From Octopus vulgaris (Eukaryota): a stretch of DNA of 64,000 bases. Location: contig OX597841.1 of assembly GCA_951406725.2 (NCBI GenBank), positions 17,918,001-17,982,000 of the forward strand, given 5' to 3'. Of the stretch, positions 10,332-34,931 are shown in pieces (position 1 is the first letter of the stretch; each line of letters opens with the position of its first letter). The position numbers were made by a program, and so were the translations under genes. The notes beneath the pieces are model-generated. The model did not search any database. It was not told where the DNA came from and was given only the letters and a program-made list of their open reading frames with translations.

Positions 10332-10383
10332 GTCTCCGATGAAGGGATATAATCAATAAATATCCTGGAAACAGCTGTAAGAC
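10332..10383 (+). ncRNA. Minimal type-I hammerhead ribozyme-like motif (core variant CCGAUGA)
   Basis: Stem I GTCT/AGAC; core CCGATGA; stem II GGGATAT/ATATCCT; GAAA; palindromic CAGCTG stem III; GUA cleavage triplet. Confidence 0.65.
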
Positions 10384-10641
10384 CTTCTATCTATAAATGT
10401 TCTCATATCTACACAGCCTTGGGTTTTTTTATCTCATTACACAAAAAATTCTTATGTACACACGCTGACATATGACAGGCATTGAACCCCTTTTTCTCAA
10501 AATCACCAAATCTGGAACTTAACTATGGTCTGTCTATAGCACTTATTCAGCATTACCTGACACCTTTGGGTCTCAATGACACCATTACCTCTTATAACCT
10601 CAATATATATATATATATATATATATATATATATATATATA

Positions 10642-11208
10642 ATGAGTAAAACAGCCAGATTTAAATCTCTGAATGAGATCTTAGTTCTAATTATTTCTTA
10701 GTAAAATCTATTTGCCAATGTAAGGTGGTAGTCCTGTGTAGGACCATGTTACTACCTTTTAACCCCAGGAAAACATCTTTTCCAGCTGGTTATTGGTACA
10801 CAATCTGTGTCTGAAATACAGTGTGAGCAAGGGAACGTACTACTCCCTCCCAGCCACTAGCAGTACCAACAGTATAGTTACTACTTAAATCTCATTCAGA
10901 GATTCAAAACTTGCTGTTTGACTCATTATGAGATCAGTGACTGTGTCACTACTGTGAGGAGGGTTGAGTAAGCTGCTGTCTCTAGCTGGCGGTTGTCCTG
11001 CACCAAGGACGGGTAATTACTCCGAAACCATTGGTCTGTTAGCGCTGCTAGTGGCTTGGAGGAAACAGTGTGCTCCATTGCTCACACTATATTTCAGACA
11101 CAGATGGTGTGTTGATAACTAGCTGGAAAAGATGCTTTTCTGGGGTTAAAAGGTAATAATGTGGTCCTATGCAGGACTGCAACCTTATGTTGGCAAATAG
11201 ATTTTACT
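10642..11208. repeat. Interleaved inverted-repeat element (A 10642-10685, B 10700-10872, A' 10880-10927, B' 11035-11208)
   Basis: A pairs with A' and B pairs with B' as reverse complements. A decayed hammerhead (CTG-TGA GGAG...CTCC GAAACCATTGGTC) lies between A' and B'. Confidence 0.7.
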
Positions 11209-11764
11209 GTGTGTGTGTGTGTCCTCCCATGGTCACTCGACAACTGGTGTTGATGTGTTTATGTCCCTGTAAAAGAAACGGATAGTATAAGTACTAAACT
11301 TCCCAAAAAAGTCCTGGGGTCGATTTGTTCAAGTAAAACTCTTCAAGGAGGTGCCCCAGCATGGCCACAGTCAAATGACTGAAATAAATAAAAGAATTAC
11401 TTTGGTTGGATATGGCTGGTTTAAATGTTAAAGGGTTAAAAACTTTTGGTAAAGCTAGGGGCTGAGAATATGTTGAGTGATAAAAAGGGAGTTTGTGCCA
11501 ATCAAAATAGTTTCTTAATAGAAACAGGGACCTCATGAAATGTTACATTGATACAGTCTGTCCGTAAAAACAGAGCAGAGATTTAAAGGGCCACGATGAG
11601 AGCATTGGATGAGTAAACAGGGGTCAAAGGGTCAAATTTGTTGAGTTTGCTAAGCAAATATGATGGAAAGAGAGCAGCCAAGGGATTTCCTTGACAATGC
11701 TACAAGTTTCAGCGGATCAGCATCATCATCATTACCACCAACATTATTGTCCTCCTCCTCCTCC

Positions 11765-12463
11765 TCACCACCACCACCACCACCACCGCAACCACCACCA
11801 CCACTGCAACCACCACCACCACCACCACCGCAACCACCACCGCAACCACCGCAACCACCACCGCAACCACCACCACCACCACCACCACCACCACCACCAC
11901 CACCACCACCACCACCACCACCACTACAACCACCACCACCACCACCACCACCACAACCACCACCACCACCCACCACCACCACCACCACCACCACCACCAC
12001 CACCACCACCACCACCACCACCACCACCACCGCAACCACCACCGCCACCACCACCACAACCACCACCACAACCACCACCACCACCACCACCGCAACCACC
12101 ACCGCCACCACAACCACAACCACCACAACCACCACAACCACCACCACCACCACCACCACCACCACCACCACCACCACCACCACCACAACCACCACCACCA
12201 CCACCACCACCACCACAACCACCACCACCACCACCACCACCACCACCACAACCACCACCACCACCACCACCACCACCACCACCACCACCACCACCACCAC
12301 CACCACCACCACCACCACCACCACCACAACCACCACAACCACAACCACCACAACCACCACCACCACCACCACCACAACCACCACCACCACCACCACCACC
12401 ACCACCACCACCACCACCACCACCACCACCACCACCACCACCACCACCACCACCACCACCACC
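11765..12463 (+). repeat. (CCA)n trinucleotide microsatellite, about 700 bp, with CAA/CCG interruptions
   Basis: Directly visible. It is the source of the poly-P/T/H/V/W/G ORFs. Confidence 0.95.
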
Positions 12464-12699
12464 ATTCACAAGACTTTTATCAGCTCAGGGCTATAATAAA
12501 AGATTCTCCCCCCCAAAGTGCTACACAGTGGGACTCAGCTCAGAGCCATTGGGAAACAAATTTCTTCTTACGACGCAGCCATGCCTGCCCCTAATAAGCA
12601 TGAAAATTAAATCTTGCAGTAAAACGCTTAACAAAACAATCCCATACCATCTGCGTTAGTTTTTTGTATTTGACAAAAGGAGAAAGACAAATCCAGCCT

Positions 12700-31382: not shown

Positions 31383-31765
31383 TCTTTTACTTGTTTCAGC
31401 CGTTTGACTGCAGCCATGCTGGAGCACTGCCTTTAATCGAGCAAATCGACCCCAGGACTTATTCTTTGTAAGCCTAGTACTTACTCTATCGGTCTCTTTT
31501 GCCGAACCGCTAAGTTACGGGGACATAAACACACCAGCATCGGTTCTCAAGCGATGTTGGGGGACAAACAAAGACACACACACATATATATATACATATA
31601 TACGACAGGCTTCTTTCAGTTTCCATCTACCAAACCCACTCACAAGGCTTTGGTCGAGCCGAGGCTATAGTAGAAGACACTTGCCCAAGGTGCCACACAG
31701 TGGGACTGAACCCAGAACCATGTGGTTGGTAAGGAAGTTACTTACCACACAGCCACTCCTGCACC
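31383..31765 (-). mobile_element. SINE family A, full length
   Basis: Reverse complement of the family A sequence at 20430-20870. Confidence 0.85.
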
Positions 31766-33097
31766 TATATATATATATATATATAATATATATATATATA
31801 TATATATATATATATATATATATATATATATATAATATTAATTAGAGACAAAACCACTATTAAGCAAATCAAACAAAGAAAGACTTAATCCAATATATTT
31901 ATAATAATCTTTTACTTGTTTCAGTCATTTGACTGTGGCCATGCTAGAGCACCACATTTAGTCAAGCAAATCGACCCCGGGACTTATTCTTTGTAAGCCC
32001 AGTACTTATTCTATTAGTCTCTTTTGCTGTACTGCTAAGATACAGGGACTTAAACACAACAACATTAGTTGTCAAGCATTGGTGGGGGTACAAACACAGA
32101 CACACAAATACACACACACACACACACACACACACACACACTCACACACATATATATATATATATATATATATATATATATATATAAAGATGGGCTTCTT
32201 TCAGTTTCTGTCTACCAAATCCATTCACAAGTAGAAGACACCTACCCAAGGTACCATGCAGTGGGACTGAACCCCGAACCATGTGGTTGGGAAGCAAGCT
32301 TTGTACCACACAGCCACTCCTGCACCTATAAGCCACCCCTGTGCCTATATCTATCCCTCTCTCTACACACACGCATATATATATATCCACACCAAAAAAT
32401 AAGATTAAGAATTATATTTTATTGTTCGCTAAACCCGTACCCCCAAGGTTTACTGTCTGGAAACCAGGATTTTCTATACCTGAAAAATTTCAGTCTTAGT
32501 CTGGAATCCGACAGTGTTGATAACCCCGAACTCATCCTATCTTTACCCCCTACCAGGACTTTATATATGTATATACATATATTTAAAGGAGCCCCTGACC
32601 ATGGGATTGCACCTGGAAAAGTTCCCTTCCAACACACAAGTCTAGGCAAGGTCGTTTATGGAAGAGCAGCATTCACCCATGCATACCAGCCCCCCCTCTC
32701 AACACCACCGATGTTATCCGAGGGAAAGGCAAAGGAGCTGATACAGCTTGGCACCAATGATGTTGCAATGAACTGGAGTAATGTGGAATAAAGTGTCTTG
32801 CTCAAGAACACAACACACAGCCTGGTCCAAGAATCCAACTCACTACCCCATGATTGTGCATGCAATGCTCTAACCACTGCAGGGTAGTTGGCGTTAGGAA
32901 GGGCATCCAGTAATAAAAACCATGTCAAAACAGACATAGAAGTTTGGTGCAGTCTTCTGCCTAGCCAGATCCTGTCAAACCGTCAAACTCATGCCAGCAT
33001 TGAAAGCAGACGTAAATGATGATGAGATATGTGTGTGTGTGTGTGTGTGTGTGTGTGTATACACACACACACATATACATATATGTATGTATGCATA

Positions 33098-34611
33098 CAG
33101 TAACGGCCATAATATAAGGATCTGTAAGAACAAGTGTAATGAAATAGTTATTATAGAAGATTAACAAAACGTTGAGACAAGATATTTTACACATATTTAG
33201 ATATATCTAATATCTATCTTTCGTGAAAAATTCAAGTGAATCGAATAAATATTCCATAAATTATGAGGAAATAAACAAACAATCTTCGAAACTACAGCGG
33301 CCAAAAGTTAAGTCACTCAGGAAAGATGAACTACTAACCGAGATATTTGTTGCTTAGAAGACTATTAATGGGCGAACAGTTACTTCTTATGATTTCACAT
33401 TATTGAACCATTCAGCTGTCAACATGGTGGCTTGTGACAGACGACCGGTAGGGAAAAACAAACGCCTGTGTACCTTCACCGAGAGGGCAAATAAAATTCT
33501 GTGATAGCAAATACTGTAGGAAGGTCTAGAAGTGTTGTTCAACAAATTGTTACTAGTTTTAAGTCATCCGGATCGACAGATGCTACACCCAAAACCGGTA
33601 AACCTTGCAAAGCTTCACCAAGACAGGATCGTATTAATGTTAGCAAGTGACTGAAAAATAGGTTTAAGAGTGCTGCTGAGATATTCCCTGAGTTTAGCTC
33701 TACTTCCGTTGTCAACGTATCGCGCAAAACAGTTTCTCGGAGGTTACGAGGTTCTGGTTTGCTTGCTCGAGCACCGGCAAAGAAACCTCTGATCTCCAAG
33801 AAGAATCGAAGATCCTGTTTTCATTTCGCTCACGAACATATCGTTTGGACAGAAGAACAGTGGTCTCAGGTTCATTTCAGCGATGAATCAAGGTTTAATG
33901 TGATCGGTTCCGATGGTGATATGTACTTCCGACGAAAAAGTGGCGAAAGGCTATCTCGTGCATGTGTGAACAAGACAGTGAAATATGGAGGCAGCGTAAT
34001 GATACGGGGAATGATGTCTGCTGCTAGTCCTGTTCCATTTATTCGCCTACAAGGGACTCTCAATGCTGAAATCTACAAGTAGTTTCCTAGACAACATGCC
34101 CTTCCACATCTCCGATCCTCGCCAGTTCAACCTCCTATCTTCGTGCAGGACAACGCTCCCTAACACTCTATGAGTTGATCTCATGGACGGGCCACCTGAA
34201 AGTCCTGCCCTCAACCCTATAGAAAACCGTTGGAAGATTATTGGAGATGGAGCGCGAAGGAGGAATCCAAAGAACCAAGATGAACTCTGGGAATTATTGA
34301 AAAACGAATGGAACAATATTATTCCATTCTTTTGCATTGATAGCAAAAGGGATGGTCACAAAATCTTAAGAGTAAGGGTTTCCTTTTTGTTCTTGTTCCA
34401 TTTCTCATTGCTTTTCTAAGTGACCCTTAACGTTTGGCTGTTGCAATTTGGAAGATTCTTCATTTATTTCCTCGTAACTTACAACGTGTTTACTGCAATC
34501 ATCTGGAATTTTCACGAAAGATAGATATTAAATATATCTAAATATGTGTAAAATATCTAGTCTCAATGCTTCTATGATAAATATTTCTTACTTATATTAT
34601 GGGCGTTACTG
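33098..34611 (+). mobile_element. Degenerate Tc1-like transposon with long (~200-bp) TIRs
   Basis: Ends CAGTAACG(G/C)CCATAATATAAG. Transposase motifs KKPLIS, VHFSDESRF, QDNAP and PPESPALNPIENRW, with stops and frameshifts. Confidence 0.9.
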
Positions 34612-34726
34612 ATATATATAAAGAGAGAGAGAGAGAGAGAGAATATCGTGGTGTGAGTTCGCTTGTGGTCTAAATGAATAGTTACGCTGAGTAAGTGCTA
34701 TAGTTGGTCGTCCGTTAGGTTAGCAT

Positions 34727-34931
34727 GTCCACGCACTGGGTATTCCGTCACTAGAGACAAGGTATGAATATTTTAGACAGGGAAAATTTACAGTTTATAA
34801 AGAATAAAACAGAAGAATAAAGAGTAAGGTAGAATACTTTCTTCTATTTTATTCCTTATGTAAACTGTAAATTTTCTCAGTCTAAAATATTCATACCTTG
34901 TCTCTGATGACGGAATACCCAGTGCGTGGAC
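34727..34931. repeat. Hairpin element with ~90-bp arms containing a hammerhead 5' half (CTGATGA 34904-34910)
   Basis: GTCCACGCACTGGGTATTCCGTCA...TGACGGAATACCCAGTGCGTGGAC. No downstream GAAAC half is visible. Confidence 0.7.

What the first reader, a model, noticed from the sequence alone, without database searches (positions are those of the whole stretch)
10332..34931. A zoo of hammerhead-ribozyme-bearing fold-back mini-elements living in (TA)n tracts
Seen: five recognisable type-I hammerhead folds (10332-10383, 15504-15630, 19268-19353 minus, 27847-27908, 28366-28400). There are also decayed or half motifs at ~10952-11040, 14795-14826, 18979-19060, 22855-22905, ~23505-23535 and 34904. Sequences outside the core differ between them, so they represent several families. 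Most sit in 200-700-bp non-coding units next to (TA)n, and many carry an inverted partial copy of themselves. Known: minimal type-I hammerheads with a palindromic stem III (CAGCTG, CAATTG, AACGTT) typify Penelope pseudo-LTRs and animal retrozymes and are thought to cleave as dimers. Inference: this is a diverse population of non-autonomous ribozyme retroelements associated with TA microsatellites and mobilised by PLE RT (one PLE RT is at 63707-64000). I do not know whether such elements have been described for this lineage.
Basis: partly seen in the sequence, partly recalled or inferred. Interest (0 to 1): 0.85.

Follow-up and report, generated by a model that had tools for sequence, protein, structure and literature searches.

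The report
Penelope retrotransposon ends carrying hammerhead ribozymes
The hammerhead (self-cutting RNA) motifs are real, but eight of the nine repeat families carrying them run into Penelope-like jumping-gene proteins elsewhere in this genome and are most likely the broken-off tail ends of that known, TA-microsatellite-seeking element, while one family is a small protein-free unit likely copied by the same enzymes; cutting itself is untested.

Summary
The five hammerhead folds are at the stated coordinates and beat shuffles (3 strict hits vs 0.02). The span holds nine hammerhead-bearing repeat families, each with hundreds to thousands of genomic candidates, ending at (TA)n. Eight lead upstream, in other copies, into Penelope-like ORFs: six Hydra-type, two Neptune/Nematis-type. 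One family has near-complete pLTR-tail-ORF-pLTR copies. The 'fold-backs' are the known inverted, 5'-truncated arm plus tail. So most are truncated ends of autonomous elements, not mini-elements. Only family F (10639-11208) is a closed 346-358-bp unit with no ORF, a probable retrozyme. The window is not exceptional: 13 motifs in 400 kb sampled elsewhere imply about 10^5 per genome. Hydra-clade elements with hammerheads and (TA)n preference are already published for Octopus bimaculoides. Earlier notes of this scan report the same architecture on other DNA of this genome. Of residual interest: the retrozyme clade, very long tails and stem II arms, and a tail on exactly one arm in 9 of 9 two-armed insertions here (read by eye), consistent with twin priming. 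Cleavage, expression and circles are untested. New members of a known kind; interest 0.27.

The parts
10040..10602 (+). Family A: single-armed 3' end of a Hydra-type PLE; hammerhead 10332-10383 with U4C core (the commoner state in copies) and an A.G mismatch at the base of stem II; ends at (TA)19
   Evidence: 5084 first-look candidates; RT and EN C-terminus collinear upstream in L074/L168
10639..11208 (+). Family F: closed 346-358-bp non-coding unit, two-armed insertion (inverted arm 10639-10872, forward arm 10873-11208); decayed hammerhead 10997-11042, core 11003-11009
   Evidence: 885 candidates; head-to-tail partial dimers; 41 motif instances map on the concatemer, no ORF hit; window arms mapped
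14664..14863 (+). Family C, second copy: inverted tail arm plus 3' half of the hammerhead (14795-14826)
15130..15842 (+). Family B: inverted end-plus-tail arm (15130-15308) and forward 3' end; hammerhead 15504-15630 with a 100-nt stem II region
   Evidence: 3737 candidates; EN upstream through a 2-3 kb AT-rich UTR
18839..19190 (+). Family G: two-armed insertion; near-intact hammerhead 18974-19060 with U.U at the base of stem II; tail on the forward arm
   Evidence: 2172 candidates; EN collinear upstream in 6 of 20 walked loci
19225..19690 (-). Family C: young 5'-truncated PLE end, canonical hammerhead 19268-19353, inverted tail arm 19501-19690
   Evidence: 3363 candidates, 99% identity; near-complete elements in L165 and L166
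22781..22925 (+). Family D, second copy: inverted tail arm plus 3' half of the hammerhead
23392..23722 (+). Family H: two-armed insertion holding only the 3' half (23661-23675) of a hammerhead whose halves lie 210-440 nt or more apart in longer copies; 23499-23564 is an inversion junction
   Evidence: 667 candidates; Neptune/Nematis-type EN upstream in 3 of 20 walked loci
27780..27945 (+). Family D: inverted tail arm plus hammerhead 27846-27909
   Evidence: 365 candidates; RT collinear upstream in L169 and L170
27946..28054 (-). Family H, second copy: single arm with 3' half of the hammerhead and tail
28305..28503 (+). Family E: about 200-bp single arm with minimal hammerhead 28366-28400 (4-nt palindromic stem III, bulged A after the core)
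   Evidence: 4033 candidates; continues into a CA-rich UTR and a Neptune/Nematis-type EN in walked loci
34645..35045 (+). Family I: inverted end-plus-tail arm (34645-34816) and forward end; core 34904-34910 intact, 3' half decayed
   Evidence: 1151 candidates; decayed Hydra-type EN 500-750 bp upstream in L201
63680..64000 (+). N-terminal part of a frameshifted Neptune/Nematis-type PLE ORF that continues beyond the window; no hammerhead found behind its EN

Best explanation
These motifs are type-I hammerheads in the 3' ends of many endonuclease-bearing Penelope-like retroelement families, most likely left as 5'-truncated, often two-armed insertions in TA microsatellites, plus one closed non-coding unit (family F) that is likely a retrozyme copied by the same enzymes. 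Shown: the motifs, the upstream ORFs in other copies, the pLTR-tail-ORF-pLTR layout of family C, fixed 3' ends at microsatellites with variable 5' ends, and F's closed unit. Inferred from published PLE biochemistry: the GIY-YIG endonuclease cuts both strands of (TA)n; reverse transcription starts at one of two fixed internal RNA sites, giving the short end or the end with tail; and it usually stops early. Priming from both strands, one start site each, would give the head-to-head arms with a tail on one arm only. Predicted: the ribozymes cut poorly as monomers and as dimers through the self-complementary stem III. For F, double cleavage and ligation would give an RNA circle or multimer template, explaining copies longer than one unit. 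Most genomic copies are probably dead and decay neutrally.
For: Family C: 23 of 28 non-paralogous loci extend 200 bp or more upstream into the GIY-YIG region, 4 of 28 for 1.6 kb or more. L165 has pLTR 5511-5770, tail 5764-5937, ORF 5973-8307, pLTR 8365-8636, so the window's inverted arm is the element's own 5' UTR tail. ORF collinear upstream for A (1 of 22 non-paralogous loci), B (EN in 8 of 13 loci holding the far-upstream anchor; EN to hammerhead within one locus in L226), D (2 of 25), G (6 of 20), I (1 of 16), H (3 of 20), E (1 of 25, then 3 of 5 extended loci). Hydra signatures DKT, RWL, CxxC..E..N..CxH and no CCHH in C; CxCx5C linker in B, D, G (definition). Two 3' end clusters at microsatellites in C, D, G, H, I, B and F. 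TA enrichment: 8 of 13 motifs within 200 bp of (TA)5 vs 15% background, p 1.7e-4. Self-complementary stem III in 19 of 21 six-nt-loop clusters although only the closing pair was demanded. Compensatory changes between subfamilies. F: 15 of 38 arms longer than one unit, 0 ORF hits in 55 overlapping loci; sister units with a 352-bp tandem. Literature.
Against: The ORF link rests on one or two decayed loci for A, D and I. D's two linked ORFs differ from each other by eye. For E it rests on loci interrupted by other insertions, and most E copies are about 200 bp with clustered 5' ends. Family C lacks the CxCx5C linker, and its motif is RWL, not RWK. No phylogeny against reference PLEs was run. Only family C's predicted dimer resembled the active fold; for A, B, D, E, G and F the lowest-energy dimers were other structures. 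In the one PLE tested in vitro, hammerhead cleavage was not needed for insertion, and 8 of 9 Xenopus retrozyme dimers did not cleave. F copies are old (about 70-86% identity to the reference unit), with a C.A mismatch at the base of stem II in 19 of 32. Only the best 40 candidates per search were scored, so rare ORF-bearing F copies could be missed.
Confidence: 0.85

Rival explanations
1. Most families are independently amplified non-autonomous ribozyme mini-elements, and the ORF-linked loci are only their ancestors or chance neighbours.
For: F is such a unit and has sisters. E copies are mostly about 200 bp, very abundant (9 E-type motifs in 400 kb) and start near one microsatellite-like stretch. 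First-round loci of B, E, G, H and most of D and I showed no collinear ORF within 1.5 kb.
Against: Upstream homology falls off gradually, as for 5' truncation. Walking upstream reached ORFs for all families except F. In C the tail is the 5' UTR of the full element. Clustered E starts can come from microhomology with the TA/TG target (inference).
Confidence: 0.12
2. The hammerhead folds are kept as protein-binding or structural signals of the PLE RNA and rarely or never cut.
For: U4C cores are common in A and F and mismatches at the base of stem II in A, F, G, I; H has a loop of 210-440 nt or more; published PLE hammerheads cleave weakly or need protein.
Against: Catalytic core nucleotides and the UH cleavage site are kept across 33 clusters (partly imposed by the descriptor), and the undemanded self-complementarity of stem III is kept in 19 of 21. 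An unpaired base on either side of stem II also occurs in published Hydra-clade motifs. This rival concerns ribozyme function only and is compatible with the best explanation's origin story.
Confidence: 0.3
3. The units are MITE-like DNA transposons or palindromes formed by replication errors in TA tracts, and the motifs are chance.
For: The inverted arms look like terminal inverted repeats; one neighbouring palindromic family (28775-28960) has no hammerhead.
Against: Motif counts far exceed shuffles. Arms differ in length from copy to copy, about half the copies of A and E are single-armed (13 of 22, 14 of 28), and the units lead into RT-EN ORFs.
Confidence: 0.02

Closest known systems
Hydra clade of C-terminal EN+ Penelope-like elements, including Hydra-1_Obim of Octopus bimaculoides (Craig et al. 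2021, PMC8557442; seen: passages, section 11, part 2 of the supplementary archive, which was cut when stored)
   Same: Single RT-GIY-YIG ORF, element under 3 kb (family C), DKT motif, no CCHH, CxxC and CxH around E and N, canonical hammerhead at the 3' end, (TA)n preference, inverted 5'-truncated copy, tail often at one end only.
   Different: At least six families here rather than one; UTRs up to 2-3 kb (B); stem II regions of 12-100 nt; tails of about 45-170 nt rather than 30-40; family C lacks the CxCx5C linker. None of the window's motifs equals the printed Hydra-1_Obim hammerhead, though D and F share a similar 9-nt stem III.
Minimal hammerheads of metazoan PLEs (Cervera and De la Pena 2014, PMC4209133; seen: parts 1-2 of 4)
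   Same: Many consensus families per genome, mostly single motifs from truncated PLEs, pairs 100-700 bp apart on opposite strands, palindromic stem III, a bulged base before stem II (family E), predicted dimers.
   Different: Estimated number here (about 10^5) is about ten times their largest quoted PLE counts (4,000-9,000), with a different descriptor; no octopus data in the parts read.
Animal non-LTR retrozymes (Cervera and de la Pena 2020, PMC7229834, passages; Li, Clavereau and Pollet 2026 preprint 10.64898/2026.07.22.740005, parts 1-3 of 5, supplements closed)
   Same: Family F: about 350-nt monomer, 42% GC, one type-I hammerhead per unit, head-to-tail copies, no ORF, PLE-like ends.
   Different: F occurs as dispersed 1-2-unit, often two-armed insertions in microsatellites with two fixed 3' ends, not as long arrays; expression and circles not shown; neither paper's read parts cover cephalopods ('octopus' and 'cephalopod' 0 hits in the 2020 main text).
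Poseidon element PAc of Anolis (Frangieh et al. 2024, PMC11167929; seen: parts 1-2 of 4) and Adineta Penelope elements (Arkhipova et al. 2013, PMC3846280; passages)
   Same: Two reverse-transcription start sites delimit the tail; both DNA strands are cut and extended; AT-rich targets; tail optionally on one of the inverted pLTRs.
   Different: Different clade; here the tail is non-coding 5' UTR up to about 170 nt, not within the first 120 nt of the ORF.

Membership tests
Type-I hammerhead ribozyme | CUGANGA and GAAA cores, UH site, stems I-III in type-I order | tested here: met
   U4C variant in A and F; decayed in the window copies of F and I
Type-I hammerhead ribozyme | Compensatory base changes in stems | tested here: met
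   G-type (n=41) both-sides changes in 5 copies at stem I pair 2 and 5 at stem II pair 2; C-type (n=31) 6 at stem II pair 5. Within the old families D and F changes are mostly breaks or G.U. Copies are related, so counts are not independent events.
Type-I hammerhead ribozyme | Self-cleavage, monomer or dimer | not testable with these tools
   Only folding energies; only contigs were available among listed runs
EN+ Penelope-like element | Single ORF with RT and C-terminal GIY-YIG | tested here: met
   Atlas look-alikes carry RVT_1, GIY-YIG and HTH_animal in part of their members; Pfam gave no hit for the family C ORF
EN+ Penelope-like element | pLTR partial tandem, inverted 5'-truncated copy, optional tail | tested here: met
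   L165, L166, L164, L167; end clusters
Hydra clade | DKG changed to DKT; RWK motif | tested here: inconclusive
   DKT present, RWL instead of RWK in family C; N-termini of the other families not seen
Hydra clade | No CCHH in EN; CxxC and CxH around conserved E and N | tested here: met
   families C, G, B, D
Hydra clade | CxCx5C linker | tested here: inconclusive
   met in B, D and G; not met in C; not seen for A and I
Hydra clade | (TA)n insertion preference and 3' hammerhead | tested here: met
Hydra clade | Monophyly with reference Hydra RTs | not tested
Neptune or Nematis clade (families E, H, window-end ORF) | Zn-finger linker before EN and CCHH within EN | tested here: inconclusive
   Both read by eye in the window-end element; E- and H-linked ORFs match it at 32-63%; the two clades were not told apart
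Animal non-LTR retrozyme (family F) | Non-coding 150-450-nt unit with a type-I hammerhead, in head-to-tail copies | tested here: met
   346, 356 and 358 bp spacings in 3 of 25 loci; 15 of 38 arms exceed one unit; no ORF hit
Animal non-LTR retrozyme (family F) | Two consecutive intact hammerheads (criterion for active copies) | tested here: inconclusive
   Partial dimers carry two motifs but with substitutions; family is old
Animal non-LTR retrozyme (family F) | Linear and circular RNA expressed | not tested
Animal non-LTR retrozyme (families A-E, G-I) | Closed unit with no ORF | tested here: not met
   ORF collinear upstream in other copies

The most novel reading that the evidence does not exclude
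This genome holds about 10^5 hammerheads from dozens of PLE families, plus its own clade of about 350-nt retrozymes (F and sisters) that insert through the PLE machinery as dispersed two-armed copies. A strict rule of one tailed and one tail-less arm records twin priming by a dimeric PLE protein using both start sites of one RNA, which would make the origin of PLE inverted repeats directly testable, with the 99%-identical family C as an active Hydra-type element for in vitro work.
Probability: 0.35. Interest if true: 0.55.

Novelty: new member of a known kind. Interest (0 to 1): 0.27.

Why it matters
Practically, it tells annotators that these TA-embedded palindromes are PLE ends, not MITEs or a new class, and that hammerheads are a very common genomic motif in this animal. 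Mechanistically, PLE integration is still poorly understood. Long tails make the two start sites easy to score, and a closed non-coding unit that shows the same two ends supports the recent proposal that animal retrozymes ride PLE enzymes. None of this overturns current knowledge.

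Tried and rejected
Rfam scans found no hammerhead: the listed matches were microsatellite-driven microRNA models (150 of 338 rows shown) and nothing relevant at 28300-28480 or 25590-27520. Pfam missed the family C ORF. Run search for family C: no RNA holder listed; the rows are only guessed RNA and are contigs. 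Contigs of 4 runs covered 27-29 of 30 bins of a near-complete element but cannot show strand, ends or cleavage; not used as evidence. A 72-nt skip in 3 of the 4 runs lacks splice ends and was not pursued. The first walk for B used a stretch that was mostly flank; only its last 75 bp and a separate short piece hit repeats. End positions for B are confounded by an internal AT repeat, so one search is used for B. Inverted-arm frequencies are biased for families whose query held an inverted arm; only A and E are quoted. 23505-23535 rejected as a ribozyme; the 28775-28960 palindrome rejected (the core-like heptamer is private to this copy and its paralogues); the 342-bp array has no descriptor hit. 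The window-end PLE was rejected as partner: no hammerhead or family match behind its EN. A count of tailed versus tail-less arms over all loci was not made; only the nine window insertions were read by eye. Literature searches: hammerhead+Penelope+octopus, hammerhead ribozyme+cephalopod, retrozyme+octopus and octopus+Penelope+transposable found no survey of octopus hammerheads beyond Craig 2021. The 2026 O. vulgaris repeat annotation (PMC13282606; part 1 of 3 and term search) lists 31 recently active Penelope-like families and has 0 hits for hammerhead, ribozyme, retrozyme or Hydra in its main text; its supplements and repeat library were not examined and may already name these families.

Full report
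Setting. The window is G000:C28:17918001-17982000 in a 2.80-Gb genome of 227 contigs. It is probably an octopus: I recognise its SINEs from memory, and earlier scan notes say the same; no call names the organism. Parts of the region exist in two further copies on the same contig at 94-100% identity in most hits, which I discounted where counts say 'non-paralogous'.

Observation. The strict setting gave 3 hits against a mean of 0.02 in 100 local dinucleotide shuffles; allowing one core change with a good stem II gave 4 against 0.69 (1 of 100 shuffles reached it); the loosest setting gave 10 against 5.95, not significant. Of the six secondary motifs, 14795 and 22855 are 3' halves of second copies of two families, 18979 is nearly intact, 34904 is a 5' half, 10952-11040 contains a ribozyme whose core is at 11003-11009, and 23505-23535 is an inversion junction, not a ribozyme.

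Families. I searched the genome with each unit. First-look candidates, which are not copy numbers, were A 5084, B 3737 (14), C 3363 (18), D 365 (22), E 4033 (65), F 885 (29), G 2172 (28), H 667 (32), I 1151 (33). Only the best 40 were scored each time and 20-30 fetched. In all families the 3' ends are fixed and abut microsatellites, while 5' ends vary: 20 of 22 for A, 26 of 29 C, 16 of 20 D, 27 of 28 E, 15 of 17 G, 16 of 18 H, 10 of 14 I; for B and F. C, D, G, H, I, B and F have two 3' ends, a short one and one with a tail of about 45-170 nt; A and E show one.

What lies upstream. Family C is decisive: 23 of 28 non-paralogous loci run on into a GIY-YIG region and 4 into the RT. Extended loci show pLTR, tail, ORF, pLTR in L165 and L166, the latter with a tail again at the 3' end. 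The tail is thus the 5' UTR that follows the upstream pLTR, and the window's 'fold-back' is an inverted arm carrying it. The ORF has YRDD, DKT, RWL, CxxC..E and CxH, no CCHH and no CxCx5C linker; Pfam found nothing, Atlas look-alikes carry RVT_1, GIY-YIG and HTH_animal in part of their members. Related ORFs (29-47% identity to C) lie collinear upstream of A in 1 of 22 loci, D in 2 of 25, I in 1 of 16, G in 6 of 20 walked loci and B in 8 of 13 loci holding an anchor 3 kb upstream, with EN-to-hammerhead continuity in L226. B, D and G have the CxCx5C linker. E and H instead continue through CA-rich UTRs to ORFs resembling the window-end element: H in 3 of 20 walked loci, E in 1 of 25 and 3 of 5 extended loci, two of them interrupted by another insertion. 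That element has a Zn-finger linker and CCHH by my reading, so it is Neptune- or Nematis-type; it is frameshifted, only its N-terminal part is in the window, and no hammerhead follows it.

The exception. In family F the sequence after the short end runs into the unit's own 5' part. Hammerhead spacings of 346, 356 and 358 bp occur in 3 of 25 loci. All 41 distinct motif instances from two searches map on a concatemer of one unit, with 5' starts spread continuously back through the junction and 3' ends in two clusters; 15 of 38 arms exceed one unit, and none of the 55 overlapping loci gave an ORF hit. Sister units with their own hammerheads and a 352-bp tandem were found by chance in other loci. 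This is a probable non-LTR retrozyme, old (about 70-86% identity to the reference unit) and untested for expression.

Is the window special? In 40 stretches of 10 kb taken at round-number positions the descriptor found 13 motifs against 0.17 in 12 shuffles; one of the 13 may be chance. That extrapolates to about 9 x 10^4 per genome (4-15 x 10^4), and the window's 5 are only about twice the expectation (p 0.06). Eight of the 13 lie within 200 bp upstream of (TA)5 against 15% for random positions (p 1.7e-4); two of the other five were too near a stretch end to measure. The 415 loci held 138 distinct motifs in 33 clusters (loci enriched by design).

Ribozyme anatomy. Nineteen of 21 clusters with a six-base stem III loop are fully self-complementary although only the closing pair was demanded (about 16% expected by my estimate; clusters are related, so the nominal p is too small). 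The stem III strands form duplexes of -1.7 to -11.1 kcal/mol and no hairpin. Family C's lowest-energy dimer resembles the dimeric hammerhead (-49.4 vs -39.0 for two monomers); the others do not. Compensatory changes appear between subfamilies of G and C, while old families D and F mainly decay. U4C cores, mismatches at the base of stem II and long stem II arms are common, and H's two halves lie 210-440 nt or more apart, so activity is not assured.

Mechanism. Published work shows a PLE protein cutting and extending both strands of AT-rich DNA and starting at two internal RNA sites that delimit the tail (PMC11167929), with the tail often on one arm only (PMC8557442; PMC3846280). Prompted by an earlier scan note (e1-9598000), I read the nine two-armed insertions of the window by eye (against family tails): all nine carry tail sequence on exactly one arm, eight on the shorter inverted arm, in two cases only part of it. 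With equal odds per arm that is about 0.002 (hand calculation). The count over all loci was not made. I infer priming from both strands with one start site each; this is not shown.

Comparison. Hydra-clade PLEs with canonical hammerheads and (TA)n preference are published, including Hydra-1_Obim from Octopus bimaculoides. Dispersed single motifs and opposite-strand pairs 100-700 bp apart were described in 2014 as truncated PLEs, and retrozymes were proposed as non-autonomous PLE derivatives in a 2026 preprint. My searches found no survey of octopus hammerheads or retrozymes, but I did not see the supplements or library of the 2026 O. vulgaris repeat annotation, the cut part of Craig's archive, or the preprint's closed supplements. 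Earlier notes of this scan describe the same architecture elsewhere in this genome; they are not independent evidence, and my reading was recorded before I opened them.

Verdict. Real motifs, mostly ordinary footprints of known elements, with one probable retrozyme family and some structural extremes: new members of a known kind, interest 0.27.

Noticed in passing
window 25583-27742: Young composite insertion in a TA tract: a 342-bp array, a 155-bp array and a SINE-like 3' end. Absent from both paralogous copies of the region. Dispersed copies have arrays of 1 to about 24 units, variable 5' starts and a shared 3' part. No hammerhead or Rfam hit. Looks like a 5'-truncating retroelement that carries tandem arrays.
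   Followed up: partly
window 28775-28960: Palindromic family of about 150 bp plus a one-sided extension, 987 candidates, about 75% identity, TA-flanked, no hammerhead in other copies; MITE-like or another PLE-type end.
   Followed up: partly
window about 10000-35000; G000:C28 19.78-19.81 Mb (inverted) and 10.14-10.16 Mb: The region is present three times on the contig, mostly at 94-100% identity, with indel differences: segmental duplication or assembly redundancy.
   Followed up: partly
L168:5600-6400; L119, L212, L344, L176: Sister units of family F with their own hammerheads, tandem (352 bp) or fold-back, sharing a 100-125-bp module with F.
   Followed up: partly
L373, L366, L385 (family H): Predicted hammerhead whose two halves are separated by 210-440 nt or more, with a duplicated 5' half of which the inner copy often has C3 changed to U.
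   Followed up: partly
   Followed up: no
L166:7059-7132: In-frame 72-nt skip in contigs of 3 of 4 runs, without splice-site ends; probably a variant copy.
   Followed up: no
window 8012-9159: 122-bp tandem array, 9.4 copies, 97% matches, strong AT skew.
   Followed up: no
window 11766-12464: 700-bp (CAC)n trinucleotide tract.
   Followed up: no
window about 33100-34600 and 24120-25380: Two decayed DNA-transposon-like elements, the first with inverted ends and transposase-like sequence of the Tc1/mariner kind, recognised by eye from memory.
   Followed up: no
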